A program made the position numbers and the translations under genes. From a virus, in the IMG/VR virus record IMGVR_UViG_3300045988_145033, positions 114,693-178,692 of that record: a stretch of DNA of 64,000 bases. The stretch is one strand, 5' to 3'. Shown here piece after piece: positions 27,246 through 56,062 of the stretch. Under the pieces are notes generated by a model. It did no database searches and was not told where the DNA came from. It was given only the letters and a program-made list of their open reading frames with translations. How positions within the stretch are numbered: the first letter of the stretch is position 1; the number at the start of each line of letters is the position of its first letter.

Positions 27246-29132
27246 TTATTCTTCATCATTGAAATTAGGATTGTTTAATTTAACACCCATAGCCATAAAT
27301 AGAGCATTTACATTTTGTATACTTTCTTGCTCTGTCATAGAATTTATGTATTTCAAATCATCAGGGTGAAGTGAGTTCACTTGAACGTCAGCAACAAGCG
27401 ATGATTTTCTAACTGGTGTATTTCTTATTCTACTTTCACCTGTTCTTAATATAATACCACGAGAGTCAAAGCTACCCTTTGCTCTTAGAGACAACTGAGT
27501 TTCAGCAACTTGCTTCAAAGGTGTTACAAAAAGTTTAGATACAAATGCTTCTCCTAAACACATTTCTCCATGTTCTGTATTCATATAAACTTTAGTTCTT
27601 TTTACGTTAAGTCCTACAGAGTTCATATAGTTACGAGCTTCATAGCAAGTACCAATAGTAGTTCCACTATGATAAGTAGATTGATACCAACGAATTTGTG
27701 GGTCTTTTATAAAATCTTCAAATCCGCCATTTTCAAATTCATACTTATAAGCTTCATACATCTTCTTATCCATAATAGATAATATCTTTAAGATATGAGT
27801 TTTCATTTCATCTAGTGGCTTTAGCTTCTCTCTTATAAATCTTTCTATTACCATTGTGATATAAGTTTGAAACATTTCCATCGGAACTTCCATAATAGCA
27901 CGATTAAATAGTGCTAGACAGTTTCCAAGATATTCAAGGTTTCCATATTCTTTTGTGTAATATTTACCACTATTAAATACACTAGAAACTGTGAACTTAT
28001 TTCCACATCTACCTGTAATCTTTTGTCCATTTATAGGAACTTCTCTATCGACAGTTGTAATCTTTAAAACTATTGCTTTCTTTGAAAGTATTTTCTTATA
28101 TTTAAAACCGCCTTCTTTATCATAGATAGTTCTTAAGAAGTTATACTTATCTATAAAATCATATGAGAATTTAGATTCAGAATACTCATCATTTTCATAG
28201 AATTCTTTTAAGGAATCGAGTACCTCTCTTTCATACTTTCTAGTAGCTTCTATAAGTCCCGCAAGATATGTATTTTGACATTGTTCTCCAAGTTTTTGTC
28301 TACAAGTTATATCAACTACTTTTCCTCTTGCATATACTCTTTTGTCATTCTTATTAACTGAATCCATTCCACTTGCGAGTTTCACTCTTTGATACTCTCC
28401 CTTTTGCTTTGCTATTGCTAAAAGTAAATCATTTTGTATATCTTCTCCTACAAGTGGGAAAGGTCTATAAGTATCATCAGTTCCATATAGATTCTTTAGT
28501 ATATCATTATCGACATCTATTATCTCCTCCGTAACTTGATACTTCCAACCAGCAAATCTTTCAGCTAGGCTCGTAGAAATCAGTCCTGCATCTTCGATAG
28601 ATTTGACATCAATAGATAATACAGATAAAGCATTTACTCCCCATTTATACTCCATATCCTCTCCATATGAATTAGTACGTATGATAGATTCGTCTTTTGG
28701 TATTTCATCTCCTTCTTTATACGAAGATAAGTCATCTATCATTTTAACTCCATAGCCAGCTCCAGTTTCTTCATATCCGTGGAACTCTATATAGTTAAAT
28801 TCATCGTTTTCTTTATCATATAGAATATACGAAGTCACACCACAATATTCTCCATTTATATACTTCGGAATAGCTTTACAAAGTGTATAGTTATTCTCGG
28901 CAAATATATTTTTAGTAGATTTAAGAATATCATACGAGTATGCTGTATCTACTATTGGAACTTCACCGTTCTCTATTGGACGATACTGGTTCGAGGCATT
29001 CGAGAACATATTACCTCTATTTTTGGAAACCATACCCTCGTGTGGTATTATGTTACCTTTACCATTGAACCTATCGAGCATTTCATTCCATTCAGGAATT
29101 TCCTTGTATAGAGTTGTCTTTAATTCTTTCAT
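27246..29132 (-). CDS. RNA polymerase beta subunit, C-terminal piece (split msRNAP)
   Basis: GRCGNKF (cf. GRHGNKG), HGEMCLGEAF (cf. GEMEVWALEAY), C-terminal QESIQNVNALFMAMGVKLN (cf. ESFNVLLKEIRSLGINIE). Confidence 0.65.
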   Translation of the reverse strand: MKELKTTLYKEIPEWNEMLDRFNGKGNIIPHEGMVSKNRGNMFSNASNQYRPIENGEVPIVDTAYSYDILKSTKNIFAENNYTLCKAIPKYINGEYCGVTSYILYDKENDEFNYIEFHGYEETGAGYGVKMIDDLSSYKEGDEIPKDESIIRTNSYGEDMEYKWGVNALSVLSIDVKSIEDAGLISTSLAERFAGWKYQVTEEIIDVDNDILKNLYGTDDTYRPFPLVGEDIQNDLLLAIAKQKGEYQRVKLASGMDSVNKNDKRVYARGKVVDITCRQKLGEQCQNTYLAGLIEATRKYEREVLDSLKEFYENDEYSESKFSYDFIDKYNFLRTIYDKEGGFKYKKILSKKAIVLKITTVDREVPINGQKITGRCGNKFTVSSVFNSGKYYTKEYGNLEYLGNCLALFNRAIMEVPMEMFQTYITMVIERFIREKLKPLDEMKTHILKILSIMDKKMYEAYKYEFENGGFEDFIKDPQIRWYQSTYHSGTTIGTCYEARNYMNSVGLNVKRTKVYMNTEHGEMCLGEAFVSKLFVTPLKQVAETQLSLRAKGSFDSRGIILRTGESRIRNTPVRKSSLVADVQVNSLHPDDLKYINSMTEQESIQNVNALFMAMGVKLNNPNFNDEE

Positions 29133-38446: not shown

Positions 38447-38893
38447 ATGAAAGCTGTTCCAATACCACAGAAAGATTTGATTAAATATATAGAAACTCCT
38501 ATGAGTTTATCTGAATTTAATAAAAATGAACGCTACGAGGATATTCGTGGCATTATAAATTTTCTTTTAAATTTAATAGTAATGGTGCCGGGAACTATAC
38601 CCGAGATGCCAGAAATGGGTTACGATTTGCATGGAAGAAGACACTTTATAATGAATGGAAAGTCTCTTATGAAGCAAACTGATGACCTTAAAAAACAAAT
38701 AGCACTATATTGCAATCATAATGCAATAACAGCAACTACTGTGTATCCTACAACTGACCATATAACAGGAGAGCAATCCGTTACAGTTATAGAAATAATG
38801 CTAGCAACTGGAGAGGTTGTAAAACTGTATGATGACGGTTATGATACAAAGATAGGCGTTAATATAATAGATGGAAAAGATTTTAGTAAATAA
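38447..38893 (+). CDS. gp25-like baseplate wedge protein (GPW/gp25 family)
   Basis: IRGIINFLLNLIVMVPGTIPEMPEMGYDLHGRRHF fits gp25 I..I..LL.T..GE.P..P.FG pattern; size 148 aa. Confidence 0.45.
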   Translation: MKAVPIPQKDLIKYIETPMSLSEFNKNERYEDIRGIINFLLNLIVMVPGTIPEMPEMGYDLHGRRHFIMNGKSLMKQTDDLKKQIALYCNHNAITATTVYPTTDHITGEQSVTVIEIMLATGEVVKLYDDGYDTKIGVNIIDGKDFSK

Positions 38894-38906
38894 GGAGGAA
38901 TAATTA

Positions 38907-40691
38907 ATGGAAGAAAAAATGACACTTGCCGAATATGGTAAGAAGTTACAAGAGGGAGAAGGTATAACTCCTATTAAAGAAGAAAGCGAAGTATTTGGTG
39001 AAGAAACTAAAAGTGAGAATACTGTAAGCGTTAATACTCCAGCAAGTGAGAGCTTAGATGATGTAGAAGTATTTGACCCAAAAGATGCTTCTAAATTTAT
39101 ACCTAGTATGCAAAGAGTAGCAAACTTATCAGAACGTGGTGGAATAATTCCTGCTATGAATGAAGAAGAAATAGCAGATATGAATAAGAAACTTGAAGGT
39201 GCTGAAAATCTATACATGAAGTATACAGAAAAGGACGCTATTGCATCTATAGAAGCTTTAAGAAGACACGGATATACAGATGCTGAAATAGATGAACTTC
39301 CATATCTTAAACTTCTATCTATAGGTAAAGCTATAATAGAAGACGAGAAAGCTGGAACTGTAGGAGATATGAAAGATAAAGTAGATGAAAATGGAAATAT
39401 AGATATGTCTCATATGAATGAAGAAGTTACAAATAGTGGACTTAAAAAGGTAGATGAAACTGTAAGAGTCGACTCAGCTGTTTCTGGTGTTCAATCTAAT
39501 AATCCTAACCCTACAGTAATAGATAAAGACGGTAAAGACTTAACTAAAGAGGAAGAAGATGAATTAGTAGAAAAATCTCTAAATGATATGCTAGATGCTA
39601 ATAAAAAGGTGTATATTAAATATGCTGATAAACCTTTAAACTCTTATAGAAGAGCAAAGGAATCAAAAGCTAAGAAGCTACTTTCAAGACAAAAAAGAGG
39701 AAATAAGGTAGAAGTATTCCTACCTAACTCAAATCTTATGCTTGAAGTATTTGAAATTCATCAACCTATGATAATAAATGAAGTTATGACTTTAACTCAA
39801 ATGAGCCAAGATATAATGGCTAAGAAAAGAGTAGTGGAAGCTATACTTGAAAGGTCAAATCCTATGTGCTCAGACGGTGATGAGATAACTGTAGACGGTA
39901 TGATGAACTATATATCTTATGACGATTTAGGATACATTTATTTAGCAGCGGCTTATGCAAATACTATAGGAGAAGTTCCTTATGGTGTAAGATGTGAAAA
40001 ATGTGGAACACAAGGAACTATAAAGCTTGATATACCTAAACTATTCACAAAGGCTATACAAGATATACCTGATGATGTAAAAGCTCAATATAACCCTTCT
40101 GATAGCTTTGGTAAGTGTATAGAAAAATCGCTAGCTAATAAGATAGTAGAAGTAAAAGATAAAGATGCAAGAGTTGTAGTAACTCTATCTAATCCGTCTT
40201 TACTTGCTAACTGTACACTAGGACAAGCTATAAAGACATATATTTGCGAATCATTTGCATCTATGATACCTGAACAATTCAAGTTCCAATCTATAGATAC
40301 TAAGTTTGATTTCTTAGCAAATCTTGAATCTAATGAGATTATGAAAACTGTATCAGCTTGTGTAATCTTGTCTTATATAGAAAAGGTAGATATATTCACA
40401 TTTGAAGGCGGAGAAGATAATTGGGATAATCCTGAATTCTTAGATGCTTCTTATGATAGTGATGAAGACGGAGTGGACTTAATGATAGAAACTATGCTAT
40501 CTTTAGAAAAGTCTACTATGGATATAATAGAAAAGACTATAGAAAAGGAATATATAAGAAAGAGAATAGAGCTTGATACTGGAGCTTGGTCTTGTCCTAA
40601 TGAAAAGTGTAAAGCTATTAACTCTTCGAGGGTTGAGGGTTTAGAGCTATTGATTCTTTCTTTGTCTCACAAGATGGAAGAAAGCAAATAG
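38907..40691 (+). CDS. hypothetical protein with two Cys-x2-Cys pairs; possibly baseplate component
   Basis: AGGAGG RBS 9 nt after gp25-like stop. Confidence 0.5.
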   Translation: MEEKMTLAEYGKKLQEGEGITPIKEESEVFGEETKSENTVSVNTPASESLDDVEVFDPKDASKFIPSMQRVANLSERGGIIPAMNEEEIADMNKKLEGAENLYMKYTEKDAIASIEALRRHGYTDAEIDELPYLKLLSIGKAIIEDEKAGTVGDMKDKVDENGNIDMSHMNEEVTNSGLKKVDETVRVDSAVSGVQSNNPNPTVIDKDGKDLTKEEEDELVEKSLNDMLDANKKVYIKYADKPLNSYRRAKESKAKKLLSRQKRGNKVEVFLPNSNLMLEVFEIHQPMIINEVMTLTQMSQDIMAKKRVVEAILERSNPMCSDGDEITVDGMMNYISYDDLGYIYLAAAYANTIGEVPYGVRCEKCGTQGTIKLDIPKLFTKAIQDIPDDVKAQYNPSDSFGKCIEKSLANKIVEVKDKDARVVVTLSNPSLLANCTLGQAIKTYICESFASMIPEQFKFQSIDTKFDFLANLESNEIMKTVSACVILSYIEKVDIFTFEGGEDNWDNPEFLDASYDSDEDGVDLMIETMLSLEKSTMDIIEKTIEKEYIRKRIELDTGAWSCPNEKCKAINSSRVEGLELLILSLSHKMEESK

Positions 40692-41713
40692 GTTTTTTAC
40701 ATAATGTCGTTATCATCTTAGAAGGTAAGTATTCATATGAAACTCTAGCAGAAATGCCTATGAGTGAAATAGAAGCTCTACTTCAACATAATCAAGAATT
40801 TATAAGGATTAGAGATGAGATGATGGAGAAACAAAGACAGAAAGCAGAGCAAGAATCAAGAAACGGAAATAAAAAAGGTAGAACTACTAAAGAACCAATA
40901 TATTATTAAAATAAAAATATATGTGTGGGATATCCCACACATATATTTAGAAATACAAAATATTTCGGAGATAACTTTTATGAGAAGACAATATAAAGAA
41001 TATTATCGACTTACAAAAAGTTATTTAAGAAGATGTGGGACACCCAATGAATATTGATATTGACATTTCAACTCAAAGAAGTGTTCCTAATATTGTAATA
41101 AAAGATTTAGGTAGGCTTTCGCCTACCAATGTCATACATTATTAAATAACTTGTATAAAAGGACACCTAAATAATCTACATAAATTTAAGTACGAGTGAT
41201 ATAATATTCAAACCGAAAAGGATGAAATTATTTCAAATACGTGTTGTGCATATTTTAAGGTGGGCATATGCCCACCCGAGATGTGTCTTGTTAGTTGAAT
41301 TTGAACCAAATAGTTCAAGCTCTCTTCACAAGTGGTAGAATAGGACACCTAAGAGAACCTTGATAAAATCATTATCATGGCTATTAATAGCCATATAAAT
41401 GTTAAATTGAGGGGTGGAGCTCAAAGCTCCACACAATAGGACACCTAAGTCATTAATTAAATTTTATTAAGTTTTCTTCATGGGGTATCATACTTTGATA
41501 TCCAAAAAAGTAATTAAGAATCTTCTCACTTAAAGAGGATTCTGATTCTTAGAAGAGAAAGTAAAGAGAACTACCTCTATCGTAATTCTCTTTCCTTGTC
41601 TAAATGAATAAAGTGGGACACCCAAGGTATTATATGATTTCTACATGAGTAATAAGATAACAATTTTTCCAAATGTTTATGCTATCATTTATCTTGTTAG
41701 TCAATTTTAAAAA
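40692..41713. repeat. gene-free region with 5 direct copies of GGACACCYAA (41046, 41161, 41342, 41439, 41616) interleaved with perfect hairpins (40921-40942, 41110-41127, 41259-41276, 41412-41431)
   Basis: Direct reading; no ORF >60 aa. Confidence 0.7.
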
Positions 41714-42412
41714 TTACATAGTAACCATACATAGTCCATCTGAGCTATCAAGAGATACAATCTTACCGAATATCTCTTTTATCTCTTTATCATAATCTTC
41801 TACAGATTTATGCTTTTCGTATGTATTTATTATATTATCTAAATAATGAACTATTTGAGCTATTCTTTTAACCCAAGTTTCATCTTTAGCACTTTCTATG
41901 TGATGGTCAGGTTTACCGTCTTTCATTACTATCTTATATATAAGCTCATCAAATACAAAAGTATATACTTTAGCATTATTACCTTCAGGGTGTATAGATA
42001 AGCTATCAAGAACCATAACACTATCAGTTATTGCTTGTTCATTCTCTCTTTTACTCATATCAGTAATAAGTACATTCACATCAAATAACTCATATCCATT
42101 ATTTCTCAAATCATTATGAGCTTTATATCTTTCAAGTATAGTCTTATTAGCATCCCAAGTAATATCAGCTTTTTCTATATTATGATTACCTATTACTATT
42201 ATCTCATTCTCAGTTCTTATTCTAATAGTAATATCATTATTAAAAGGATGTCCGTTATATATCCCTATTTCAGTTTCTACACTCTTACCTTGCTTTCTAT
42301 AATGTGATGATACACCTTCTACTATATTTGATATAAATATACCTTTATCCTCTTTACTTAAATACTTAGTAGTACCTATTATATCAATATTTAAAACTAC
42401 CTTACATTTCAT
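41714..42412 (-). CDS. hypothetical protein (232 aa) downstream of GC-rich ncRNA candidate
   Basis: ORF with GGAGG RBS. Confidence 0.5.
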   Translation of the reverse strand: MKCKVVLNIDIIGTTKYLSKEDKGIFISNIVEGVSSHYRKQGKSVETEIGIYNGHPFNNDITIRIRTENEIIVIGNHNIEKADITWDANKTILERYKAHNDLRNNGYELFDVNVLITDMSKRENEQAITDSVMVLDSLSIHPEGNNAKVYTFVFDELIYKIVMKDGKPDHHIESAKDETWVKRIAQIVHYLDNIINTYEKHKSVEDYDKEIKEIFGKIVSLDSSDGLCMVTM

Positions 42413-42527
42413 ATTAATTATCCTCCTTTAAACTTAATTATACGAAAATGTTCATAAACTCTCAAGTTACAATACTTTTTATTTTTATTAAAAAACTTTT
42501 TTCAAAAAAGTGGAAACACTGTTGTGT

Positions 42528-42870
42528 AAAAAACAACCTTGACGTTGGTTGTTGTCCGAGCAGAGCGAGGAGCTGAAGCGTGAGCGGAACCCCAAACCAT
42601 CCCGACCGGTGCCCCTAAGGCAAGGAGTGGAGGGTGGTTAGGGGTTGCCGAGGAACGAGCAAGAACTAATGGCAACGGTGGGAATATCGACCAAGGCAAA
42701 AGAATAAATAAAAATATAATATAAATGTTACTAAATATACAGAAATAGTAATCCTAAATGGATTATTAATTAATATAAAAAATTATAAACAACATATTGC
42801 AGTAGCAAAAAAGAAACGGCTTCGCCTACTCCGCCTGCGGCGAGCCATACGATACTGGTTACAGTAGTAG
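42528..42870 (-). ncRNA. candidate structured non-coding RNA / cis-regulatory leader (GC-rich island) ending in intrinsic terminator
   Basis: GC-rich patches 42541-42700 and 42811-42860 with multiple complementary segments; on minus strand hairpin CAACC-AACGTCAA-GGTTG + TTTTTT at 42528-42551. Confidence 0.4.
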
Positions 42871-42994
42871 TAATACTATATGTAAATACTTATATAAACA
42901 AAATAAATGATATTATTTGAGATAAGTATGTCAAAAATGTAATAGTAATATTTCGTTTTTAATTCAGCCTTATTTAGAATTTTTCTTCTAAAAA

Positions 42995-43020
42995 TATATA
43001 CTCCCGATATGGGAGTATAT
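42995..43020 (-). terminator. terminator ATATACTCCC-GATAT-GGGAGTATAT
   Basis: Follows 43023-43547 stop. Confidence 0.55.
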
Positions 43021-43022
43021 AT

Positions 43023-43547
43023 TTACTTTTTATTATCATAAATTGTAGTAGTAGATAAAAGGTATCTTACTTTCTTTTCTACATAGGTTTCTAAATTCAT
43101 TCCTAAAGCATCTAATATATTAGATACAATAGTATGATACTTATCTGGTAGTATGTAATCAGCTTTAGTAAGTTTATAGTTATCTTGTCTTTTAAACTTA
43201 TAGTAAAACTTATATATTCTTGCAAATAAAGTATTATTAACTGAGTGCATTATATACCAAGTAATAATAGTAGTTACAAGTTCATATTGTGATATATAGA
43301 AATGGTCATCTTTCACTTCTCCATTTATTTGTATCCAATTATCCCTATAATTATTAATATCTTCTAAAGGATATTTATAATCGGAATTATCTTTATCATG
43401 TACTATTCTTATATCCAGTTTATTCCATAATGTAAAGTAATCATCAAAATGAATACTTCTTAAATAGTAAGCTATTCTATTAAACATAAATTCATTTTCA
43501 AATAATTGTGGATACATAAATGTGGGTACTTTATAACCTTCTTGCAT
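43023..43547 (-). CDS. hypothetical protein
   Basis: ORF with AGGAGG RBS; terminator 42995-43020 overlaps stop. Confidence 0.5.
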   Translation of the reverse strand: MQEGYKVPTFMYPQLFENEFMFNRIAYYLRSIHFDDYFTLWNKLDIRIVHDKDNSDYKYPLEDINNYRDNWIQINGEVKDDHFYISQYELVTTIITWYIMHSVNNTLFARIYKFYYKFKRQDNYKLTKADYILPDKYHTIVSNILDALGMNLETYVEKKVRYLLSTTTIYDNKK

Positions 43548-46156: not shown

Positions 46157-46337
46157 TATTTTTCTTGTATTTTAGGAACACCTTTTTGAATTATAGCACT
46201 TAAGATTCTATACCTTATCTGTCTTCTGTTGCTATCTGTTATTCCTTAAAATTTTAAGTTAATCGCTATAAGGTATAGAAAAACTCTTTTGAATTTAGAT
46301 TAAATATATAATACTCCCGTTGTGGGAGTATTATATA

Positions 46338-48128: not shown

Positions 48129-51100
48129 ATGAATACCTTAAAGAATTTAAAACCTTGGCACATGGGTCGTCAACAATATAGACTTAATGTAAAGCCATAC
48201 AATATGTATAATATGGTGTACCCTTTAGTAGATAAACCTTATCAGTTTGATGCTGTTTTAGAAGATGCTTTAGTAAACTTCAATAAAATAGCTATGGAGC
48301 AAACTTATTGCTTCTATCAACCTAAGATGCTTTATACTAAAGTAGGTACATTTACTATAAGAGAAAAATATAAATACAACTCTATTAAAAATAGAATAAT
48401 GAGTAAGTTTAAGTTTTTAAAGAACTTTAAATTCGATTGGAGACTTTTTAGAAACTATAACTTTATATCAAACTCAGAAGCTAGAATGACAATAATAAGA
48501 GATAAGATACCTCTAAAGACAGAAGAGAGATTCTTAGCTTACATGGATTCGATGTTTGAAGAACTTAAATCATTTGATACTTATAATCAAAAGTATGTAC
48601 TTATACCTCTTGATTATGTAAAGATTCCTATGATGAAAGGTAAATATACACAGTTTTTATATAAAGATAGAAATGCTTCAAATGCTGCACTTTTACTTTG
48701 TTATTTAAAACTATATCCAGATAAGTTTATAGAATCTATGAAATCATCTAAAGTAAATCTAATCTTCTATACAAGGCAAGGAATATTCAGAATGTCTACA
48801 CTAGACGTTGAAGAAACTGTAATAGTTGGATATGCTGAAGGATTTAAAATAGAAGAAAGAGAGAAAGGAAAACTTTATGGAGAATGTCAAAATCCATTAG
48901 TTTCTGATATATTTAATACTTTATATTCAGAAGCTTATACTGTAAAGGAAGATAAGCTAATAGACGCTACCCTTGTTGCACTTCGTAAGTTAAGAGGAGA
49001 AGGTTTCCTTGCTGAAGATATGCTTGAAGACGATGAGCGTAATTATGATGACAATATGCAAGATTTACATGGACTTGACAGAGACGAAGACTTAGGAATA
49101 AAAGAGAAGAAAAACCTAAGAGATGAAGATTTAGCAAATGCTATAGGGGACGCTATAAAAGAAGATGAAATAGACCAAGCAGAAACTGAGCAGATACTTC
49201 GTATTATATCTCCTTCTTTTAATACTAAGAAAGATAAGGTAGTTGTAGGTAAAACTGAAGATGGACAGCTTGATAATATAAGAGTTCGTGAAGTTAAAAC
49301 CACAAAACAAGAAGCACAAAATATACAAGATAAAGTAGCTTCTAAGACTATAGCAAAGCTTACTGATGAGAAATCAACTGATGAAGAAATAGAACTTGCT
49401 GAATCTATAGGACGTTCTATTGTAGGTTCTAAAGTAAATGCTGAGGATATAGTAAACCACGTTAAAAGAATGAAAGATATAAGACTTGCTAAAACTAAAG
49501 TCTATAATGCTAAAGAAAAGAAATACTTACAAAAAATAAAAGAAAGTGAAACTGTAGAAGATGAGCTTGAATCTGTAGAAGGTTTAAAACTTGATGAGAC
49601 TTCTTATAATGAAGTAGAAGCTTTAGATGACATAGGAACTAACTCATTTATGAACTTTAATAAAACTTATGAAAATAAAGTAAGAAATAAAGATATTAAA
49701 TCGGTTGCTAATCATTTCTCTAAAGTAAATGAATTTCCTATGTACTCACAAGGTATAAAGGAAGAAGATGCTTCTAATAAATTCAATGCAAGAACTTTAG
49801 TTAGAATGCCATTTAAAGACCCAGAAGGTAAGCAACATAATATATCACTTCACTTACCTAAAATAGTAAATGGTAATAAGATGCTTATAAATGGTACTTG
49901 GGTTGAACTTCAATCTCAAAGAATAGTAAAACCTATAGTGAAATTTGGAGACTCTGTAATGATGAGCTTTAACTATAATAAAGCCTTTATGGAACTATCA
50001 GGAAAATATATAACAAGATATGAGTCTTTATTCGGAAGATGGTATTCAAAACTTGAAAAAGAAGATTTAACTTCTAAGGTTAAGTACACTAAGTTTGGAA
50101 GAATTGAAGAAAAGACAGATATACAAAAGACTATAGAATTTGATAGAATATCTAAGATAATCACAAAGATATATAAAGATGATAAGAACTTTATATACTT
50201 TGACTCAAATGATATGAAGGCTGAGTTTGGCGATACATTTGATAGTAAAGATGCTTTATTTATAGGTAAGCTAGATGGCGAACCTATAATACTACAAAAA
50301 GCTCTTGATACTATTAAATCACCGAAAGAAGATATTATAGCTACGTCTATTGTAGGAGAGTTTATAAGAAACTTCTTAGATTATATAAAAGAAGAACAAC
50401 TTGACATTTTAAATGGAATAAATAAAGATAGTACAGTTGCTTATTCTATTATGAAGATAATGTCAAGAAAGATACCCACAATACTTATTCTTTGCTATAC
50501 AAATGGACTCGATGAAGTTTTGGAAAGAACTGGTGTAGACCACGAGATAATATTTGATAAGAAACCTAGAATAGATGTACTACATGAAGATTTGATAGAG
50601 TTTAAAGATTGCTGGGTTAAATACTCTACTAATAATATAGAGCATATGACGCTTCTTTCTGGACTTAATAGCTTTGACTTATCTCCATATAAATTTGCTG
50701 ATTTCTGTGACCCGCAAAAAGGAATAACAGCTGAGCTTATAGCGTCTATTGGAAATGGTAACTTACCACTATATGTGACTTCATTTGAAATGCTTTTCGT
50801 TGACCCTATAAATACAGACGTTCTAAAGCATTATAATCTCCCCACTACATTTATAGACGTTCTTCTGTATGCTAATATGCTTCTTGCTACAGATATAAAG
50901 CAAAGAGATAGTGATATGAGACTTTATAGAATAAGAAGTGAGGAGATAATACCGGCTGTAATGTATAAGGTTCTGGCTGACGCTTATGCTGATTATCATA
51001 TAGCAAAGAAAAGAGGTTCTACAGTTGCAAGATTTGAAGTTCAAAGAGATGCTGTAATGAAAGCTATATTTGAACAAGCAAACGTTCAAACTTATTCGGT

Positions 51101-52583
51101 TGTGAATCCTATGGTATCAGCTGACAGTCAAACTAAAGTTACTACAAAAGGTTTATCAGGACTTAACCTAGATAGAGGATATACACTTGAAAAACGTATT
51201 ATAGACCCGTCATCGGCAGGAACGAGAGCTATGCCGTCAGTTTATTCAGGTGGAATAGGAATAGTTCAGAGAACGCCTATAGACCCTAATATAATATCTC
51301 CTCGTGGTTATCTTGTTGCTCCAGAAAGTGATGAAGATGTAGATAAGCTATCAGCAAAGCAAATGTTATCTCCAACTGAGCTTATGACTCCCGGGACTAC
51401 AAATAAAGACGATGCTCAACGGGTTTATATGAATATGCAACAAAAAGGACATATGCAAGGAATACTTCACCCTACTATAAATAATGTCTCAAATGGATAT
51501 GATGAGATGATAGGACACGCTGCTCCTGAGTTTTGTCATTATATGGAAAAAGACGGAGTTGTAACTGATGTAAATGAAGACTTCGTATTCGTAAAATATG
51601 ATGACGGTACAGATGATGCTTTCAGACTTACTAATACTGAAAGACATAGTGCTAAAGCTAAATATATAGCAAACGATATGACACTTATGAAGAATATAAG
51701 AAAAGGTGTAAAACTAAAAGCAAATGACCCAATAGCATACAATTCATTCATGTTTAAAGAATTTGACGGAAAACCTATATGCTGTACAGGAACACACATG
51801 AATGTCGTATTTATGGCTATGCCTGAAGACTATGAAGATGCTACAGTTCTATCAGAATCAGCTACAGAAAAACTTGCATCTTATGTATCTAAATCAAAGA
51901 CTATAGTTTTAGATAAAGGTACTATCGTAAAGCACGCTGAAACTAATTTAAGAGGAGAAGTAGCGGCAAACGACATATTATTCTCATATGTAATGATGAG
52001 TGGAGATGAAGCTCTAAATGAGCTTTTAGGTAATAATACAGAAGCTATAGACAAGTCTTTACTTAAAGAAAAGAAAGCAGGTGTATCAGGTACTATACAA
52101 GAAATAAATGTATATTATGCTTGTGATAAGTCTACTATGAGTAAGTCCCTTCGTAAGTTTGTTGATACTGTAGAGGAAATCTATAAAGCAAGAGGTGAAG
52201 CGAAACTTGTAGAACTTAATATGGACAATTTTAAAAAGCAACTATTAAACAGAGAACCTACAAAGACAGAAGATGGGGTTAAAGTTGCTAATAGAAAAAT
52301 AAATAGAGATGACGTAGTAATAGAATATATTATACGTGCTTACTCTAAAGTATCTCACTCAGATAAGGTTACATACTTTAATGCCTTAAAAGGAGAAACT
52401 TCTAAGATACTTCCAGATGAACTTATGCCAGTAGGTATAGAAACAGGAGTAAGAGCAGAAGCTTGCATGTCTCCTACATCTATTATAAAAAGAAAGGTAT
52501 CATCTGTAATAGAAGCAGGAGCTTTAGAAAGACTTATATATGAAACTTTAGAGGAGTGCAAAAAAGACTTAGGAATTAAGTAA
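48129..52583 (+). CDS. RNA polymerase beta-like subunit, N-terminal/main piece (1484 aa)
   Basis: GLSGLNLDRGYTLEKRIIDPS (cf. [20 protein letters not shown]) and VVFMAMPEDYEDATVLSES (cf. VAFMPWNGYNFEDSILVSE); lacks GRHGNKG/GEMEVWAL which are in 27246-29132. Confidence 0.6.
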   Translation: MNTLKNLKPWHMGRQQYRLNVKPYNMYNMVYPLVDKPYQFDAVLEDALVNFNKIAMEQTYCFYQPKMLYTKVGTFTIREKYKYNSIKNRIMSKFKFLKNFKFDWRLFRNYNFISNSEARMTIIRDKIPLKTEERFLAYMDSMFEELKSFDTYNQKYVLIPLDYVKIPMMKGKYTQFLYKDRNASNAALLLCYLKLYPDKFIESMKSSKVNLIFYTRQGIFRMSTLDVEETVIVGYAEGFKIEEREKGKLYGECQNPLVSDIFNTLYSEAYTVKEDKLIDATLVALRKLRGEGFLAEDMLEDDERNYDDNMQDLHGLDRDEDLGIKEKKNLRDEDLANAIGDAIKEDEIDQAETEQILRIISPSFNTKKDKVVVGKTEDGQLDNIRVREVKTTKQEAQNIQDKVASKTIAKLTDEKSTDEEIELAESIGRSIVGSKVNAEDIVNHVKRMKDIRLAKTKVYNAKEKKYLQKIKESETVEDELESVEGLKLDETSYNEVEALDDIGTNSFMNFNKTYENKVRNKDIKSVANHFSKVNEFPMYSQGIKEEDASNKFNARTLVRMPFKDPEGKQHNISLHLPKIVNGNKMLINGTWVELQSQRIVKPIVKFGDSVMMSFNYNKAFMELSGKYITRYESLFGRWYSKLEKEDLTSKVKYTKFGRIEEKTDIQKTIEFDRISKIITKIYKDDKNFIYFDSNDMKAEFGDTFDSKDALFIGKLDGEPIILQKALDTIKSPKEDIIATSIVGEFIRNFLDYIKEEQLDILNGINKDSTVAYSIMKIMSRKIPTILILCYTNGLDEVLERTGVDHEIIFDKKPRIDVLHEDLIEFKDCWVKYSTNNIEHMTLLSGLNSFDLSPYKFADFCDPQKGITAELIASIGNGNLPLYVTSFEMLFVDPINTDVLKHYNLPTTFIDVLLYANMLLATDIKQRDSDMRLYRIRSEEIIPAVMYKVLADAYADYHIAKKRGSTVARFEVQRDAVMKAIFEQANVQTYSVVNPMVSADSQTKVTTKGLSGLNLDRGYTLEKRIIDPSSAGTRAMPSVYSGGIGIVQRTPIDPNIISPRGYLVAPESDEDVDKLSAKQMLSPTELMTPGTTNKDDAQRVYMNMQQKGHMQGILHPTINNVSNGYDEMIGHAAPEFCHYMEKDGVVTDVNEDFVFVKYDDGTDDAFRLTNTERHSAKAKYIANDMTLMKNIRKGVKLKANDPIAYNSFMFKEFDGKPICCTGTHMNVVFMAMPEDYEDATVLSESATEKLASYVSKSKTIVLDKGTIVKHAETNLRGEVAANDILFSYVMMSGDEALNELLGNNTEAIDKSLLKEKKAGVSGTIQEINVYYACDKSTMSKSLRKFVDTVEEIYKARGEAKLVELNMDNFKKQLLNREPTKTEDGVKVANRKINRDDVVIEYIIRAYSKVSHSDKVTYFNALKGETSKILPDELMPVGIETGVRAEACMSPTSIIKRKVSSVIEAGALERLIYETLEECKKDLGIK

Positions 52584-52658
52584 CATTAAGATGTGACTAT
52601 TGGTTTCACATTTTGCACGTCACTCATTAAATTGATATTAAATTTAATTGATTGATTT

Positions 52659-52668
52659 TTAGGTGTCC
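52659..52668 (-). repeat. inverted copy of GGACACCTAA motif in convergent intergenic region
   Basis: TTAGGTGTCC on plus strand. Confidence 0.6.
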
Positions 52669-52756
52669 TAATCTAAGTTCGATAGGAAAAGTCTAATTAC
52701 ATCTGACTAAGATTTGTGATTAATTTTTTCATAGAAACTCCGTAGAAAATAAAAAA

Positions 52757-52785
52757 GAATAACCTCTCCCTAGTGGAGAGGTTAT
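52757..52785. terminator. bidirectional terminator AATAACCTCTCC-CTAGT-GGAGAGGTTATT
   Basis: Between convergent beta gene and 52786 gene. Confidence 0.65.
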
Positions 52786-53406
52786 TTACTTTATTAAATC
52801 TCTTATAAGATGCTCTATAAAATCCTTATTAGCTTTATTGGCTATAAGTGGTTTATAAAACTCTTTATCTAGTTTATTTTCTAAATAATCTTTCTTGAAT
52901 TTATGAAGTACAGTATATAGTCTTTTCTGTTCATCATTTTCAGCATACATCATAAACTCTTTAATCTTAGAAAACCATATACTCTCTCCAGTTATCCCTC
53001 TTACAAAGAAAGTACCCATAATACTATCAATATAGAATACTACTTTACCATAAGAGAAATTAGAAGTAGATGCACGTTTACATACAAATCTAATATTATC
53101 ATCTATATTAAGATTTAAGACCTTGTGAGTAACCCATACGGCGTCGTGTGCTACCTCTATGATATTTTTATTGCTTAACTTATTATTCTTCTTAAATAGC
53201 TCTACAGCCTCTTTAACCTTATTCTGATAAAGTTCTGTATAACCTTCGTTTGCTCCTCTTAACTTTCCTATATAGATTTGTCTCTCAAGTCTATCGGCTT
53301 TATATAGCTTATCATATAAAGCCTTATCTATAAGTCCTAATGATAAGAATACCGATATATTACATTTATGTATATCATATTCATAAGCTTCTTGCTTTCT
53401 ATACAT
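52786..53406 (-). CDS. hypothetical protein (start MYRKQEAY after GAAAGGGGATATT)
   Basis: ORF; leader near-identical to that of 62778-63206. Confidence 0.5.
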   Translation of the reverse strand: MYRKQEAYEYDIHKCNISVFLSLGLIDKALYDKLYKADRLERQIYIGKLRGANEGYTELYQNKVKEAVELFKKNNKLSNKNIIEVAHDAVWVTHKVLNLNIDDNIRFVCKRASTSNFSYGKVVFYIDSIMGTFFVRGITGESIWFSKIKEFMMYAENDEQKRLYTVLHKFKKDYLENKLDKEFYKPLIANKANKDFIEHLIRDLIK

Positions 53407-53447
53407 AATATCCCCTTTCAAAAAAGATAAGGTGGGGATAAACCCCA

Positions 53448-54059
53448 CTATTTCTTACCTTTAATAGTTTTCATCACCATATCTATTTCATCTTCATTAC
53501 AATCAAGTTCTTTTTCTAACTCTTCGTCTGACATATAAAGAACTCTTTCTGCTTCCTCATCAGTAAGATGTAATACATTTTTAAGTGCATCTTTAGCTTC
53601 CTTATTTTGCTTATCTATTTCTTTGAGTACAGGCTCTATTATATTTTGAGGAATTAAATCCTTTAAAGTTCTTTTAATATCATTTGCAAGTCCTTGTGAT
53701 ACTGTTGTGAAGCAATTTCTTAAAACCCAAGCAGTTTCTTCAAGCTCAGCTTCACAAGCAGATGATATATTTTGAAGTAGTGTGAAGTTTACTTCTTCTG
53801 TAGTTAGAACCTTTAGGAACTCATAAATTCTTTCTTCATAAGAATCAGTATCCTCTTCTTCTCTTATAACAAGACAGGCTTCTAAAAGTGCAACTCCTCT
53901 TGTCTTTTCGTCATAGCAAGCAAGATACACTAAAGGCTTATGTATCAAAAGGGAGAGCATAGATATCTTATCCAGCTTATCCTTTGGGTCTAGGGATTTA
54001 ATATGCTCTATAAGCTCTACATTTGACTTATACGTCAGTCTATCAATTCTTCTTATCAT
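53448..54059 (-). CDS. hypothetical protein
   Basis: ORF. Confidence 0.5.
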   Translation of the reverse strand: MIRRIDRLTYKSNVELIEHIKSLDPKDKLDKISMLSLLIHKPLVYLACYDEKTRGVALLEACLVIREEEDTDSYEERIYEFLKVLTTEEVNFTLLQNISSACEAELEETAWVLRNCFTTVSQGLANDIKRTLKDLIPQNIIEPVLKEIDKQNKEAKDALKNVLHLTDEEAERVLYMSDEELEKELDCNEDEIDMVMKTIKGKK

Positions 54060-54605
54060 TTATATTCCTTCCTTTCTATAAATTTTATATTTATTATCTA
54101 AAGCTTCGTTTCTATTCTCGTAGAATAGATAATCACTCATATTACCACGATACTTATTAAACCAAGCTTTTATCTCAAGGTATTCTAAAACCGTTTCCAT
54201 TTCTTGTTCAAAATAGTATCTCATCTCAGATTGTATACCCCAGTTTTTAATACCCATACTATACTTAGCCTTTAGCAGTGTGCACATTTCCTCAAATACA
54301 GCAGTAATTGATTTACCAGTGTGCATAGCGTGCATTTGTATAGCATAGGCTACAAGTGATGAAAGTGGTGAATCTGAATCACATATATAAGAAACTAATG
54401 TATCTGGGTGTATATGTGCTACAACTTTATATAAATCGAGATTATTTTCATTCCTTACAAAAGATGCCCAAAATATTTCATAATGGGCATCTGCTGTTAA
54501 AGGATAAGAGATAACCCTATAAGGGTCTAGGATTATCTCTCTTGCAAGATAAGAGGACATGCGAATAAGTCCTTCTACCTTTGTTGGTCTTGACTCAATT
54601 CTCAT
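54060..54605 (-). CDS. hypothetical protein
   Basis: ORF, abuts beta-prime piece. Confidence 0.5.
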   Translation of the reverse strand: MRIESRPTKVEGLIRMSSYLAREIILDPYRVISYPLTADAHYEIFWASFVRNENNLDLYKVVAHIHPDTLVSYICDSDSPLSSLVAYAIQMHAMHTGKSITAVFEEMCTLLKAKYSMGIKNWGIQSEMRYYFEQEMETVLEYLEIKAWFNKYRGNMSDYLFYENRNEALDNKYKIYRKEGI

Positions 54606-56062
54606 TATCTTTCCACCTTCTTCTTAATCTTTCTTAGAAATTCTACATCTTTTGGATTACCTTTATCATCTAGGAACATACAAGCTGTAACGACTTGGTC
54701 ATTAACTCCACCATAAGCTCCATTTATACTTCTGTCCCACCAAAGTGTATATCTCTTAGGATTACATACCATAGAAATTCTCCATCTTAATGCTGGTGGT
54801 AATACATAGTTAGAAGTTGTGTCTCCGTCAAAGTCTCCTCTTATAAGTCCTAATATAATAGGATTTACATATATTATAGGCTCATCACATATATCATAAA
54901 TTTCAAGTGCTATAATACCTGAGAAGTCTATTGTAGGTGGACGGTTAAAGAATATCCATAATCTTTCCGTCTTTACAATATATCTTATAAGTTCTTTCTG
55001 CTTCTTAGTTATAAAGTAGTCTGGATTAGTTATTCTATCAGCTTCCGCAACGCTCATACCTAACTTGTCCATACAATATTTCATAATAAATTCTTTATGT
55101 GTTGTACGGACAATATCTACACCTACTCTACAATATTGCCCAGCTCCTAGCTTAATACTTGCGTCTGGTTCTATAAGAGTTCTTGATGAAAATGTATTCT
55201 TAGTTGAATATATCTCACCCTTTATAGTTTTCTCTTTATCATCTGAAAGCTCGTATGCTAGTTTTTCATACAAAGCTTCCGCATTTTCATAATAGTGCTT
55301 TGCAACGAATTGCATTGATTTTTCAGTTACAGGAAGCGTTCTAAATAGCTTCGCAACTGATATTATATTTGTGTATCTTATAGATAGTTCATCTGCTTGT
55401 ATAACAGGAACGTCCCCATTTTTAGTTATCATAAATCTTCTAAATCTTCTTGAGATAACTGGAAGACAATCTATAAAATACATTTCTTTATTCTTTAAAA
55501 GCCATTCTCTATAAGCTGGCTTTTTAACGTGTTCGTTTACTATATCTTCAAATCTATCATACAGATAAAAAGCATCTGTTTTACTAAAAGGCTTCTTACC
55601 TTGTATTAATTTGTCAAATTTGTTACCTTCCCTTTTAGCATTACCAGACATAAACCGCCTTAATGTCTGAACCCCTAGAGGAGTTAATGCTCTCATAGGA
55701 AGTCTTATCCAACCCATAGTATCCATTGGAAAGTCTTTCTTCTTAACTGTAGTTCCGCATTCTACACAATACTCTCCAATATTATCTGCTCCTATCTTTG
55801 CTCCGCATTTGCATTGATAACGATAAGCTTGAACTATAGGTGGTTCATGCTTTTGTGGACCGAATCTTTTAGCTGAATATATTGTATCCTCAGTTATAAG
55901 AGCGGTGTTATTGTCTTCATCGATAGAGATTTTAAGAAAATCAAAATCTAAATCTATCATGAAGTCTTTTCCTTCTGCTACTCTTTGCTCTCTATATTTG
56001 TCCATATCAAAAAGCTTAAAGTAAATTCCTTCTTTCTTCTCTTCTAATAACAATTTTATCAA
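54605..56062 (-). CDS. RNA polymerase beta-prime subunit, N-terminal piece (regions A-D); TTG start
   Basis: Zinc ribbon QCKCGAK...YCVECGTTV...TMGWIRL (cf. CHCGKYK...ICEKCGVEV...RMGHIEL); FFNRPPTIDFSGIIALE; catalytic GDFDGD. Confidence 0.85.
   Translation of the reverse strand: MIKLLLEEKKEGIYFKLFDMDKYREQRVAEGKDFMIDLDFDFLKISIDEDNNTALITEDTIYSAKRFGPQKHEPPIVQAYRYQCKCGAKIGADNIGEYCVECGTTVKKKDFPMDTMGWIRLPMRALTPLGVQTLRRFMSGNAKREGNKFDKLIQGKKPFSKTDAFYLYDRFEDIVNEHVKKPAYREWLLKNKEMYFIDCLPVISRRFRRFMITKNGDVPVIQADELSIRYTNIISVAKLFRTLPVTEKSMQFVAKHYYENAEALYEKLAYELSDDKEKTIKGEIYSTKNTFSSRTLIEPDASIKLGAGQYCRVGVDIVRTTHKEFIMKYCMDKLGMSVAEADRITNPDYFITKKQKELIRYIVKTERLWIFFNRPPTIDFSGIIALEIYDICDEPIIYVNPIILGLIRGDFDGDTTSNYVLPPALRWRISMVCNPKRYTLWWDRSINGAYGGVNDQVVTACMFLDDKGNPKDVEFLRKIKKKVER

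What the first reader, a model, noticed from the sequence alone, without database searches (positions are those of the whole stretch)
40692..41713. 1-kb gene-free region with five direct copies of a near-palindromic GGACACCYAA motif interleaved with perfect hairpins, plus a sixth inverted copy at 52659
Between convergent genes (38907-40691 on plus, 41714-42412 on minus) there is about 1 kb with no ORF over 60 aa. It contains GTGGGACACCCAA (41043-41055 and 41613-41625), AAAGGACACCTAA (41161), ATAGGACACCTAAG (41342) and ATAGGACACCTAAG (41439), all in the same orientation. The motif is an interrupted palindrome (TAGG-ACA-CCTA). The two GTGGG copies keep the symmetry by a compensatory change (TGGG-ACA-CCCA), which argues for selection on pairing or dyad symmetry rather than chance. 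Perfect hairpins sit between copies: ATGTGTGGGAT|ATCCCACACAT at 40921, GGTAGGC-TTTC-GCCTACC at 41110, GGTGGGCAT|ATGCCCACC at 41259, and GTGGAGCT-CAA-AGCTCCAC at 41412 directly abutting a motif copy. A single inverted copy (TTAGGTGTCCTAA) lies in the other large convergent intergenic gap at 52659-52668, and a degenerate TTAGGAACACC at 46172. Candidate roles are a replication origin or iteron cluster, a binding array for a phage dimeric DNA-binding protein, or RNA-processing/termination signals.
Basis: seen in the sequence. Interest (0 to 1): 0.7.

Follow-up and report, generated by a model that had tools for sequence, protein, structure and literature searches.

The report
Cluster of phage small-RNA genes
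The "gene-free" kilobase of this Fusobacterium phage is most likely a row of small non-coding RNA genes on the opposite strand, each with a phage promoter, one copy of a conserved 11-nt stem-loop and a terminator hairpin; what the shared stem-loop does is unknown.

Summary
GGACACCYAA occurs five times on the + strand in 41038-41625 and once inverted at 52659 (0.11 expected by chance).

The motif is not a double-stranded iteron. Across relatives and a second phage group only T-N-N-G-ACA-C-N'-N'-A is kept. Eight different stem pairs occur, all Watson-Crick, so it is a hairpin in single-stranded nucleic acid.

Read on the opposite strand, the region resolves into gene-like units. Those hairpins carry GNRA or UUCG loops and T-rich tails on that strand, so they are terminators.
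- Three units on the minus strand have promoters at 41085, 41245 and 41403.
- One unit on the plus strand has its promoter at 52582.
- Two copies have no strict promoter: one lies in the trailer of gene 41714-42412 (a 7-nt-spacer variant is possible), the other has none found.

The window encodes homologues of AR9 non-virion RNA polymerase subunits.

The same element recurs in the other long non-coding gaps of the related JD-Fnp4 genome. There is no Rfam or tRNA match.

The anatomy is shown from sequence only; no transcripts were seen. I infer the hairpin is a shared protein-recognition module, but its role is unknown.

The parts
41074..41085 (-). Promoter of unit RNA-A: AACACTTCTTTG (AR9-type AACA-N6-TG); predicted start at 41074
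   Evidence: In alignment A3 the letters AACAC and TTG are invariant in 9 genomes while the 6-nt spacer varies.
41036..41046 (-). On the - strand RNA it reads UGGG-UGU-CCCA
   Evidence: It lies 31 nt after the predicted start of RNA-A.
40915..40948 (-). Hairpin H1, terminator of RNA-A (15-pair stem, tail TTATTTTAAT on the - strand). It probably also ends the + operon 38447-40909
   Evidence: terminator scan, - strand. Compensatory double changes in relatives.
41234..41245 (-). Promoter of unit RNA-B: AACACGTATTTG; predicted start at 41234
   Evidence: CAA...GTGTT is invariant in A3 while the spacer varies.
41159..41169 (-).
41110..41127 (-). Hairpin H2, terminator of RNA-B: GGUAGGC-GAAA-GCCUACC followed by UAAAUCUUUU
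   Evidence: The loop on the - strand is GNRA (GAAA, GAGA or GGAA) in 6 of 9 relatives, and two stem pairs show compensatory changes.
41392..41403 (-). Promoter of unit RNA-C: AACATTTATATG; predicted start at 41392
   Evidence: It lies in the almost invariant block 41343-41450.
41341..41351 (-).
41259..41276 (-). Hairpin H3, probable weak terminator of RNA-C (tail UUAAAAUAU)
   Evidence: It did not pass the terminator scan. The loop is GAAA on the - strand in JD-Fnp1 and L016.
41437..41447 (-). No promoter was found for this unit
41412..41430 (-). Hairpin H4, 6 nt after copy 4 on the - strand
   Evidence: In 7 of 9 relatives the - strand loop is C(UUCG)G, a classic stable RNA tetraloop.
41614..41624 (-). 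It lies between the stop codon of gene 41714-42412 and that gene's terminator
   Evidence: (pair probability about 0.7).
41563..41593 (-). Hairpin H5, terminator of the - strand gene 41714-42412 and of the unit carrying copy 5
   Evidence: Variants in relatives are A.C on the + strand, which is G.U on the - strand. Alignment folding energy favours the - strand by about 8 kcal/mol.
41686..41698 (-). Possible variant promoter AACAAGATAAATG (7-nt spacer) for the unit carrying copy 5; speculative
   Evidence: It lies in an invariant block of A3. The spacing differs from the consensus.
52582..52593 (+). Promoter of unit RNA-D: AACATTAAGATG, at the stop codon of the RNA polymerase gene 48129-52583; predicted start at 52593
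   Evidence: Conserved as AACACTAAGATG in JD-Fnp4.
52660..52670 (+).
52757..52787 (.). Two-way terminator hairpin ending RNA-D (+) and gene 52786-53448 (-)
40754..40909 (+).

Best explanation
What it is. The region 40910-41713 is a tandem cluster of small non-coding RNA genes read on the minus strand. A matching solitary unit lies on the plus strand at 52582-52787.

Unit layout. Each full unit (RNA-A, -B, -C, about 140-170 nt; RNA-D, about 195 nt) has three parts:
(1) a late-type promoter of the phage's own AR9-like non-virion RNA polymerase (AACA, six bases, then TG);
(2) 31-70 nt further on, one copy of a small stem-loop, 5'-U-N-N-G-[UGU]-C-N'-N'-A-3';
(3) 6-87 nt further on, a GC-rich terminator hairpin.

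Copies without a strict promoter.
- Copy 5 sits between the stop codon and terminator of gene 41714-42412. A variant promoter with a 7-nt spacer at 41698-41686 is possible.
- Copy 4 plus H4 has no detected promoter.

The 'motif interleaved with perfect hairpins' is simply promoter-stem-loop-terminator repeated.

Shown from sequence: the copies, the base-pair covariation, the promoters and their conservation, the terminator features, and the polymerase homologues.

Inferred: that these RNAs are made, and that the stem-loop is a recognition module for a protein (phage or host). The stem-loop is too weak to matter on its own (0 to -5 kcal/mol), and its loop, closing G-C pair and flanking A are invariant.

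Suggested role. Sequence outside the promoter, stem-loop and terminator drifts at about the synonymous rate and cannot be aligned between phage groups. The RNAs therefore probably act mainly as abundant carriers of the stem-loop (decoy, sponge or RNP tag) rather than as base-pairing regulators.
For: Phage type.
- The window is a Fusobacterium nucleatum phage of about 180 kb.
- It encodes homologues of AR9 non-virion RNA polymerase subunits: ORF 27246-29132 versus 7S00_C (E 8e-27), and ORF 54605-56062 versus 7S00_d (E 1e-5).

Promoter signal.
- AR9 late promoters are AACA-N6-TA/G, read on the template strand (PMC5312081; PMC9209446).
- In the related JD-Fnp4 genome this pattern occurs 70 times against about 395 expected from base composition.
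- 32 of the 44 intergenic copies lie within 120 nt upstream of a gene start, in the sense orientation.
- The window has 23 copies, most of them 30-60 nt before a ribosome-binding site and ATG.

Link between promoter and stem-loop.
- Four of the six stem-loops have such a promoter 42-81 nt upstream on the RNA strand. The binomial P for at least 4 of 6 within 100 nt is 1.5e-6.
- In JD-Fnp4, 7 of 13 copies have one. In the distant group, 8 of 23 have one, against about 0.03 expected per site.
- The promoter letters are invariant in 9 relatives while the spacer varies.

Terminators and strand.
- H1, H2 and H5 pass the terminator scan on the minus strand; no hairpin inside the gap passes on the plus strand.
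- Loops read on the minus strand are GNRA (H2) and UUCG (H4).
- G.U-compatible variants fall on the minus strand for H5 and H3, and for 3 of 4 imperfect stem-loop copies.

Hairpin covariation: 36 of 39 pentamers are in hairpin context, and the score is 0.53 against 0.17 for shuffles (0 of 500).

Conservation of position.
- The terminase-downstream island has three copies at about +400, +490 and +610 nt in both phage groups, with different stems at the corresponding positions.
- Island identity is 76-85%, close to third-codon-position identity of 78-86%.

Islands flanked by same-direction genes.
- The stem-loop RNA strand is antisense to the neighbouring genes.
- In JD-Fnp4 each of the four copies has its own promoter; so do both copies in each of L194 and L199.

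Other promoter-driven non-coding units lacking the stem-loop exist at 42515, 42788 and 46177. The phage therefore does place RNA genes in such gaps.
Against: - No transcript data: starts, ends and the very existence of these RNAs are predictions.
- Copy 4 has no promoter. Copy 5 needs a 7-nt-spacer variant or read-through.
- The three copies downstream of the terminase gene, and 15 of 23 copies in the distant group, have no strict-consensus promoter within 160 nt. They would have to lie in long 3' trailers.
- H3 and H4 lack good U-tails.
- Alignment folding energy prefers the + strand by 2-5 kcal/mol over 41188-41358 and by about 5 kcal/mol over 41434-41560. The hairpin near 41476-41497 uses G.U pairs on the + strand.
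- The stem-loop is only marginally stable, and its predicted pair probability inside the RNAs is 0.06-0.7.
- No binding protein is identified; the neighbouring proteins have no recognisable family.
Confidence: 0.6

Rival explanations
1. Same anatomy, different role. The stem-loop is an accessory part of a composite 3'-end or termination signal. For example, it could be the landing site of a termination, pausing or RNA-stability factor that works with the terminator hairpin that follows. The short promoter-driven units would then be insulators between converging operons rather than RNAs with a job of their own.
For: - On the RNA strand every copy in the window is followed within 6-87 nt by a GC-rich hairpin.
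- Copy 5 lies between a stop codon and the gene's terminator.
- The three terminase-island copies lie in what would be the long 3' trailer of the converging gene, without promoters of their own.
- Most islands lie between converging genes.
Against: - The distance to the terminator is not fixed (6-87 nt).
- Most ordinary terminators of the phage (GC hairpin plus T9-T13) have no such stem-loop.
- Dedicated, conserved promoters in front of 4 of the 6 copies are hard to explain if only termination matters.
Confidence: 0.15
2. A DNA-level element. The hairpin would form in single-stranded DNA and mark replication origins, priming sites or strand-specific nick sites.
For: - Covariation shows pairing but cannot by itself tell RNA from single-stranded DNA.
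- No G.U-type pairs occur among 72 inner pairs of the 36 clean copies.
- The islands are slightly more AT-rich than the genome and contain very AT-rich stretches.
- The core GTGTC equals one of the phage T7 primase recognition sites (from my own knowledge, not tested here).
Against: - A 4-bp stem cannot extrude from duplex DNA.
- GC skew only tracks gene orientation.
- Spacing is irregular.
- The tight association with promoters upstream and terminators downstream on one strand (P 1.5e-6) has no explanation in this model.
Confidence: 0.08
3. The element works on the strand the first reader used (loop ACA). It would be either a stem-loop in plus-strand RNA, or a hairpin-type promoter or decoy for the polymerase's sigma-like subunit, which in AR9 reads 3'-UUGU-5' on the single-stranded template.
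For: - The motif shares ACA(C)C with the late promoter AAACA[CG]C.
- On the template strand the loop would expose TGT.
- Parts of the gap fold better on the + strand.
- In gaps flanked by same-direction genes the ACA form is sense to the neighbours.
Against: - The copies score -16 to -0.4 on a promoter matrix on which real promoters score +14 to +30.
- There is no conserved start-site dinucleotide or any other fixed-distance signal within 45 nt on either side in 36 copies.
- No promoter of either phage class lies on the + strand inside the gap.
- Tetraloops and U-tails point to the minus strand.
Confidence: 0.07
4. A double-stranded iteron or operator array bound by a dimeric DNA-binding protein.
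For: The copies are partly palindromic and clustered.
Against: - The two arms always change together: eight arm types, all complementary. A dimer that tolerates several half-sites would not require this.
- The element is asymmetric outside the stem (A at +7, A/C at +8, A at -5).
- All copies in an island have one orientation.
Confidence: 0.02

Closest known systems
Late (non-virion RNA polymerase) promoters of Bacillus phage AR9: AACA-N6-TA/G (PMC5312081, PMC9209446)
   Same: - The same consensus and spacing are found in front of many genes of this phage and in front of four of the six stem-loop units.
- Polymerase subunit homologues are encoded in the window.
- The pattern is strongly avoided elsewhere in the genome.
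   Different: - The host is Fusobacterium.
- The polymerase proteins are only distantly related (26-29% identity to Staphylococcus phage SA1, PBS1 and AR9 for the vRNAP beta-like ORF).
- Whether the DNA contains uracil is unknown.
- Here the promoters drive non-coding units.
Small RNAs of giant phages found by transcript mapping, e.g. 11 sRNAs in Pseudomonas phage 201phi2-1, three of them intergenic (PMC11512511)
   Same: - Short promoter-to-terminator units in phages that have their own multisubunit polymerases.
- Function unknown.
   Different: - Those are single RNAs detected by experiment.
- Here I predict a multi-copy family (about 13 copies per genome) that shares one 11-15 nt stem-loop. 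The stem-loop also occurs in 3' trailers of mRNAs.
Short protein-binding RNA hairpins with a fixed loop and free stems: boxB of lambdoid phages (P22 boxB loop GACAA), the MS2 operator, iron-responsive elements (five in one 3' UTR)
   Same: - The loop and closing pair are conserved while stem letters covary.
- The hairpin is too weak to act without a partner.
- Several copies serve one partner.
- (These comparisons are from my own knowledge.)
   Different: - The loop is a 3-nt UGU closed by G-C and the stem is only 4-5 bp.
- There is one copy per small RNA.
- No partner is known, and there is no boxA-like companion.
- It is not placed just downstream of operon promoters.
Decoy or sponge RNAs such as CsrB/RsmZ
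   Same: - Function would reside in repeated short hairpins, with the remaining sequence free to drift.
- High copy number raises the dose.
   Different: - CsrB carries many GGA hairpins on one RNA; here each RNA carries one hairpin and the gene is repeated.
- No CsrA-type motif is present.
Hairpin promoters of phage N4 virion RNA polymerase
   Same: Small stem with a 3-nt loop in single-stranded nucleic acid; strand-specific (from my own knowledge).
   Different: - The N4 hairpins sit upstream of early genes and need an N4-type single-subunit polymerase.
- Here there is no fixed start-site signal, and the element lies downstream of a different, recognisable promoter.

Membership tests
AR9-type late promoter | AACA at -11 to -8, six free bases, then T and A/G with the purine as start site | tested here: met
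   AACACTTCTTTG (41085-41074), AACACGTATTTG (41245-41234) and AACATTTATATG (41403-41392) on the - strand, and AACATTAAGATG (52582-52593) on the + strand.
AR9-type late promoter | The pattern marks real promoters in this genome: it sits upstream of genes and is avoided elsewhere | tested here: met
   - 70 copies against about 395 expected in JD-Fnp4.
- 32 of the 44 intergenic copies are within 120 nt upstream of a gene in the sense orientation.
- The same picture holds in the window.
AR9-type late promoter | A cognate multisubunit non-virion polymerase is encoded | tested here: met
   ORFs 27246-29132 and 54605-56062 have the AR9 nvRNAP structures 7S00, 7S01, 7UM0 and 7UM1 as their best solved relatives; for the first ORF they are the only hits. 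The sigma-like subunit (gp226 homologue) was not looked for.
AR9-type late promoter | Mapped transcription start at the predicted base | not testable with these tools
   No RNA data are available.
Intrinsic (factor-independent) terminator | GC-rich stem-loop followed by a U-rich tail on the transcribed strand | tested here: inconclusive
   H1, H2 and H5 pass on the - strand. H3 and H4 have stable stems with GNRA/UUCG loops but poor tails.
Iteron-type replication origin | Direct repeats of a double-stranded binding site at regular, helix-phased spacing | tested here: not met
   Spacing is 123, 182, 96 and 177 nt. Arm covariation shows a folded single strand.
Iteron-type replication origin | Strand-composition switch at the site | tested here: not met
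   Cumulative GC skew follows gene orientation only.
Operator array for a dimeric DNA-binding protein | Symmetric half-sites recognised by base sequence | tested here: not met
   Eight different arm pairs occur, always complementary. Flanks are asymmetric.
Known RNA families (Rfam 15) including tRNA, tmRNA, ROOL, GOLLD and ribozymes | Covariance-model match at the family's gathering score | tested here: not met
   - No match in the window or in 150 kb of JD-Fnp4.
- Only chance-level matches in the region at E up to 10.
- ARAGORN finds no tRNA.
Protein-coding small ORFs | Reading frame kept among relatives | tested here: not met
   1-2 nt insertions or deletions and premature stops occur in the candidate ORFs at 40980 and 41222 among close relatives.
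N4-type hairpin promoter | Hairpin with a 3-nt loop at a fixed distance upstream of a start site, in front of early genes | tested here: not met
   No position within 45 nt on either side carries a signal in 36 copies. No genes lie downstream.
CRISPR array or solitary repeat unit | Repeats of 24-40 nt with unique spacers of similar length | tested here: not met
   The shared element is only 11-15 nt, the spacings are 77-193 nt, and there is no longer similarity between units.

The most novel reading that the evidence does not exclude
The phage makes about a dozen near-identical 'carrier' RNAs late in infection whose only selected feature is the exposed G-UGU-C loop. Together they would act as a decoy or sponge for a host RNA-binding factor.

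One candidate is a tRNA-directed defence nuclease or modification enzyme that reads U33-G34-U35 of GUN-anticodon tRNAs; UGUC matches the tRNA-Asp anticodon loop.

Alternatively, they could be the RNA subunits or address tags of a new phage ribonucleoprotein.

The tRNA-like genes that sit beside these units in the second phage group, and the acceptor/T-arm minihelix in JD-Fnp4, would fit a tRNA-centred conflict.
Probability: 0.12. Interest if true: 0.85.

Novelty: new variant of a known kind. Interest (0 to 1): 0.55.

Why it matters
Small RNAs of giant phages with their own RNA polymerases are only starting to be catalogued, and none has a known function.

Here sequence alone gives a testable map:
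- exact predicted starts and ends for at least four RNAs in this window;
- about thirteen stem-loop copies in the related JD-Fnp4 genome;
- one shared 11-15 nt module whose pairing is proven by covariation.

That module is a ready-made bait for finding its protein partner.

The analysis also provides the first promoter map for this group of Fusobacterium nucleatum phages, which are being considered for therapy. It shows that they use AR9-like early and late promoter signals.

Tried and rejected
- tRNA and Rfam searches: ARAGORN, Rfam at gathering score and Rfam at E up to 10 found nothing.
- Small ORFs with GGAG plus ATG: frames are not conserved.
- Motif as the -35 box of a host-type promoter: this fits only 2-3 of 13 copies (my reading).
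- Motif as a variant late promoter on the + strand: matrix scores are far below those of real promoters, and there is no start-site signal.
- Longer similarity between inter-motif segments: none apart from a recurrent ATGGTAGGC...GCCTACCAT hairpin.
- Origin by GC skew: no signal.
- AT-rich unwinding region: islands are only 1-5% more AT-rich than the genome.
- Strand assignment by folding energy alone: a mosaic, not decisive.
- Strand assignment by wobble tally: 3 to 1 for the minus strand, too few cases.
- Antisense targets of the four RNAs inside the window: nothing above shuffled controls. The host genome could not be searched.
- Scan of bacterial genomes for ATAGGACACCTAAG: only single chance matches in unrelated genomes.
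- Neighbouring proteins (148, 594, 232 and 174 aa): no family and no solved relative.
- JD-Fnp4 'Cas system-associated protein': it is an SF2 helicase, not an RNA-processing enzyme.
- AR9 genome: only the first 50 kb was fetched. It is densely coding and was not pursued.
- More distant terminase relatives: none found beyond the two phage groups.
- The JD-Fnp paper: it says nothing about promoters, RNAs or repeats.
Full report
**What is there**

The window belongs to a Fusobacterium nucleatum phage of about 180 kb. It is 80-87% identical in this region to JD-Fnp4, JD-Fnp6, JD-Fnp7 and JD-Fnp1.

GGACACCYAA occurs at 41038, 41161, 41343, 41439 and 41616 on the + strand and at 52659-52668 on the - strand. 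That is six matches where 0.11 are expected.

Three details need correcting:
- Copy 1 is at 41035-41047.
- The interval includes a genuine small gene, 40748/40754-40909. It is annotated in relatives and kept as an ORF in a second phage group.
- The 'degenerate copy' at 46172 is a promoter, not a copy.

There is no tRNA and no Rfam family. Candidate small ORFs lose their frame among close relatives.

**The motif is a hairpin, not an iteron**

In the complete JD-Fnp4 genome GGAC[AG]CC occurs 15 times. Thirteen of these lie in five non-coding gaps, always in one orientation per gap:
- a single copy at 3.4 kb (equivalent to window 52659);
- the 14 kb island (equivalent to this region);
- three copies after the terminase gene;
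- four copies at 127 kb;
- one copy at 168 kb.

A second phage group, whose flanking proteins are 55-70% identical, has no GGACACC at all. At the corresponding places it carries T-N-N-G-ACA-C-N'-N'-A with other stems: GC/GC, AC/GT, AA/TT, GA/TC and CC/GG. CG/CG appears in a further island.

After the terminase gene there are three copies at about +400, +490 and +610 nt in both groups. They have different stems, while the sequence between them cannot be aligned.

In an unbiased census of the islands, 36 of 39 GAC[AG]C pentamers have both inner pairs Watson-Crick. On 38 distinct sequences the covariation score is 0.53 against 0.17 for shuffles, and 0 of 500 shuffles reach it.

The full consensus is about 15 nt: A-r-T-R-N-GACAC-N'-Y-A-M-A. 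Nothing else is conserved within 45 nt on either side.

The stem is worth only 0 to -5 kcal/mol as RNA or DNA. It cannot extrude from duplex DNA and needs a partner. These results rule out a double-stranded iteron or a dimer operator.

**The phage's own promoter signals**

Upstream regions of JD-Fnp4 genes show two classes:
- about twenty copies of TATATA(A/T)TATA...GTAG placed after T-rich terminators;
- about twenty copies of AAAAACA[CG]C...TTTAG, 38-58 nt before the start codon.

They match the early (AAATATATATTAT-N6-G) and late (AACA-N6-TA/G) promoters of Bacillus phage AR9 (PMC5312081). The late class is read by the non-virion polymerase on the template strand (PMC9209446).

The window encodes homologues of that polymerase.

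AACA-N6-T[AG] is strongly avoided in the genome: 70 copies where about 395 are expected. Of the 44 intergenic copies, 32 lie within 120 nt upstream of a gene in the sense orientation.

**The turn: read the region on the other strand**

In the window the pattern occurs 23 times. The copies not followed by a gene include:
- 41085-41074, 41245-41234 and 41403-41392, all on the minus strand;
- 52582-52593 on the plus strand.

Each points at one copy of the element 42-81 nt downstream, and then at one of the 'perfect hairpins'. The chance of at least four of six elements having such a promoter within 100 nt is 1.5e-6.

In nine relatives the promoter letters (AACAC ... TTG) are invariant while the six spacer bases vary.

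The hairpins look like terminators on that strand:
- H1, H2 and H5 pass the scan on the minus strand, and no hairpin in the gap passes on the plus strand.
- The H2 loop is GNRA in six of nine genomes.
- The H4 loop is C(UUCG)G in seven of nine.
- Imperfect variants of H5 and H3 are G.U-compatible on the minus strand.
- The same holds for three of four imperfect copies of the small stem-loop.

The alternation 'motif - hairpin - motif - hairpin' is therefore promoter - UGU stem-loop - terminator, repeated. The units are:

| Unit | Extent | Strand | Note |
|---|---|---|---|
| RNA-A | 41074 to about 40905 | - | full unit |
| RNA-B | 41234 to about 41098 | - | full unit |
| RNA-C | 41392 to about 41250 | - | full unit |
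| RNA-D | 52593 to about 52790 | + | full unit |
| Copy 5 | 41624-41614 | - | between the stop codon of gene 41714-42412 and its terminator H5; a 7-nt-spacer promoter variant at 41698-41686 in an invariant block is possible |
| Copy 4 + H4 | 41447-41412 | - | no promoter found |

**Support from other islands**

- In the JD-Fnp4 127 kb gap, flanked by genes of one direction, all four copies have their own late promoter on the antisense strand. One is followed after 26 nt by a GAAA-loop terminator.
- In the second phage group the same gap keeps two such units. It also holds tRNA-like genes on the same antisense strand. From my reading of the sequence, one of these has a late promoter.
- The window has further promoter-driven non-coding units without the stem-loop. 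One, at 42515, drives a GC-rich rod that folds with z = -4.6 on the + strand. Others are at 42788 and 46177.
- Giant phages are known to encode small RNAs of unknown function (PMC11512511).

**What the stem-loop does (inference)**

Outside the promoter, stem-loop and terminator stems, the island diverges at the rate of third codon positions: 76-85% identity against 78-86%. Between phage groups it cannot be aligned. I found no antisense target in the window above shuffled controls.

The invariant loop, closing pair and 3' A, together with free, covarying stems, are the signature of a hairpin read by a protein. I therefore favour RNAs that act as carriers of this module (decoy, sponge or RNP tag).

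The main alternative with the same anatomy is an accessory 3'-end or termination signal. On the RNA strand the stem-loop always precedes a terminator hairpin, and it also occurs in mRNA trailers.

**Weak points**

- There are no RNA data.
- Copy 4, the terminase-island copies and 15 of 23 copies in the second group lack a strict promoter.
- H3 and H4 have poor U-tails.
- Two stretches (41188-41358 and 41434-41560) fold somewhat better on the + strand.
- No partner protein is known, and the neighbouring proteins are unannotatable.

**Verdict**

The origin and DNA-operator readings are rejected. The RNA-signal reading is right in spirit, but the element is on the other strand and belongs to a row of small RNA genes.

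This is a new RNA motif and gene family inside a known kind (phage small RNAs driven by AR9-type promoters). It is interesting mainly because it is immediately testable.

Noticed in passing
window 42511-42700 (+), in the gap 42412-43023: A GC-rich segment of about 160 nt (roughly 58% GC in a 31% GC genome) folds into a long rod on the + strand (-71.5 kcal/mol, z -4.6; - strand z -1.4). It sits directly behind a late promoter, AACACTGTTGTG (42515-42526), and is antisense to both neighbouring genes. There is no Rfam match. A second promoter at 42788 precedes another GC-rich patch at 42815-42870.
   Followed up: partly
window 46177-46335 (+): An orphan late promoter, AACACCTTTTTG, is followed about 120 nt later by a terminator hairpin (ATAATACTCCCGTTGTGGGAGTATTAT). 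This looks like another small RNA unit without the UGU stem-loop.
   Followed up: partly
whole window and JD-Fnp4 (L005-L008): The phage has AR9-like early promoters (TATATA[AT]TATA...GTAG, with a conserved leader AAGAGTAAACTTAAGAAGGCTTAAGAGCTC) and late promoters (AACA-N6-T[AG]). The late pattern is about 5.6-fold depleted genome-wide. Neither class is mentioned in the paper that describes these phages.
   Followed up: partly
JD-Fnp4 genome (L005-L008); window 8086, 8136, 13536, 21253, 30391: Runs of 8 or more A or T occur only outside ORFs. They are mostly T9-T13 terminator tails. My rough gene map found none in about 165 kb of coding sequence despite 69% A+T.
   Followed up: no
L194 1500-2050 and L199 1700-2060 (second phage group, gap upstream of the HD-hydrolase gene): Several tRNA-like elements lie on the strand antisense to the flanking genes.
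- ARAGORN calls a 93-nt 'tRNA-???' with a 4-nt anticodon.
- There are sub-threshold Rfam matches to tRNA, mascRNA and the tmRNA 3' end.
- One of them appears to have its own late promoter (my reading of the sequence).
   Followed up: partly
JD-Fnp4 about 127600-127630, - strand (L007): An acceptor/T-arm-like minihelix, ATTATGGTTGGG-TTCAATC-CCCAACCATAAT, sits inside the 127 kb island. No tRNA is called anywhere in that genome.
   Followed up: no
window 41108-41129; JD-Fnp4 127448-127469 and 127757-127782: The same terminator hairpin, ATGGTAGGC-NNNN-GCCTACCAT, recurs in different islands and in both orientations.
   Followed up: no
window 40960-40985 (RNA-A), 52715-52740 (RNA-D); JD-Fnp4 about 167860-167880: A second short similarity is shared by three of the predicted RNAs, between the UGU stem-loop and the terminator: CAUA...(A/U)CUCCG(A/U), which resembles an anti-Shine-Dalgarno sequence. 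On the other strand it reads as GGAG plus ATG and mimics tiny ORFs.
   Followed up: no
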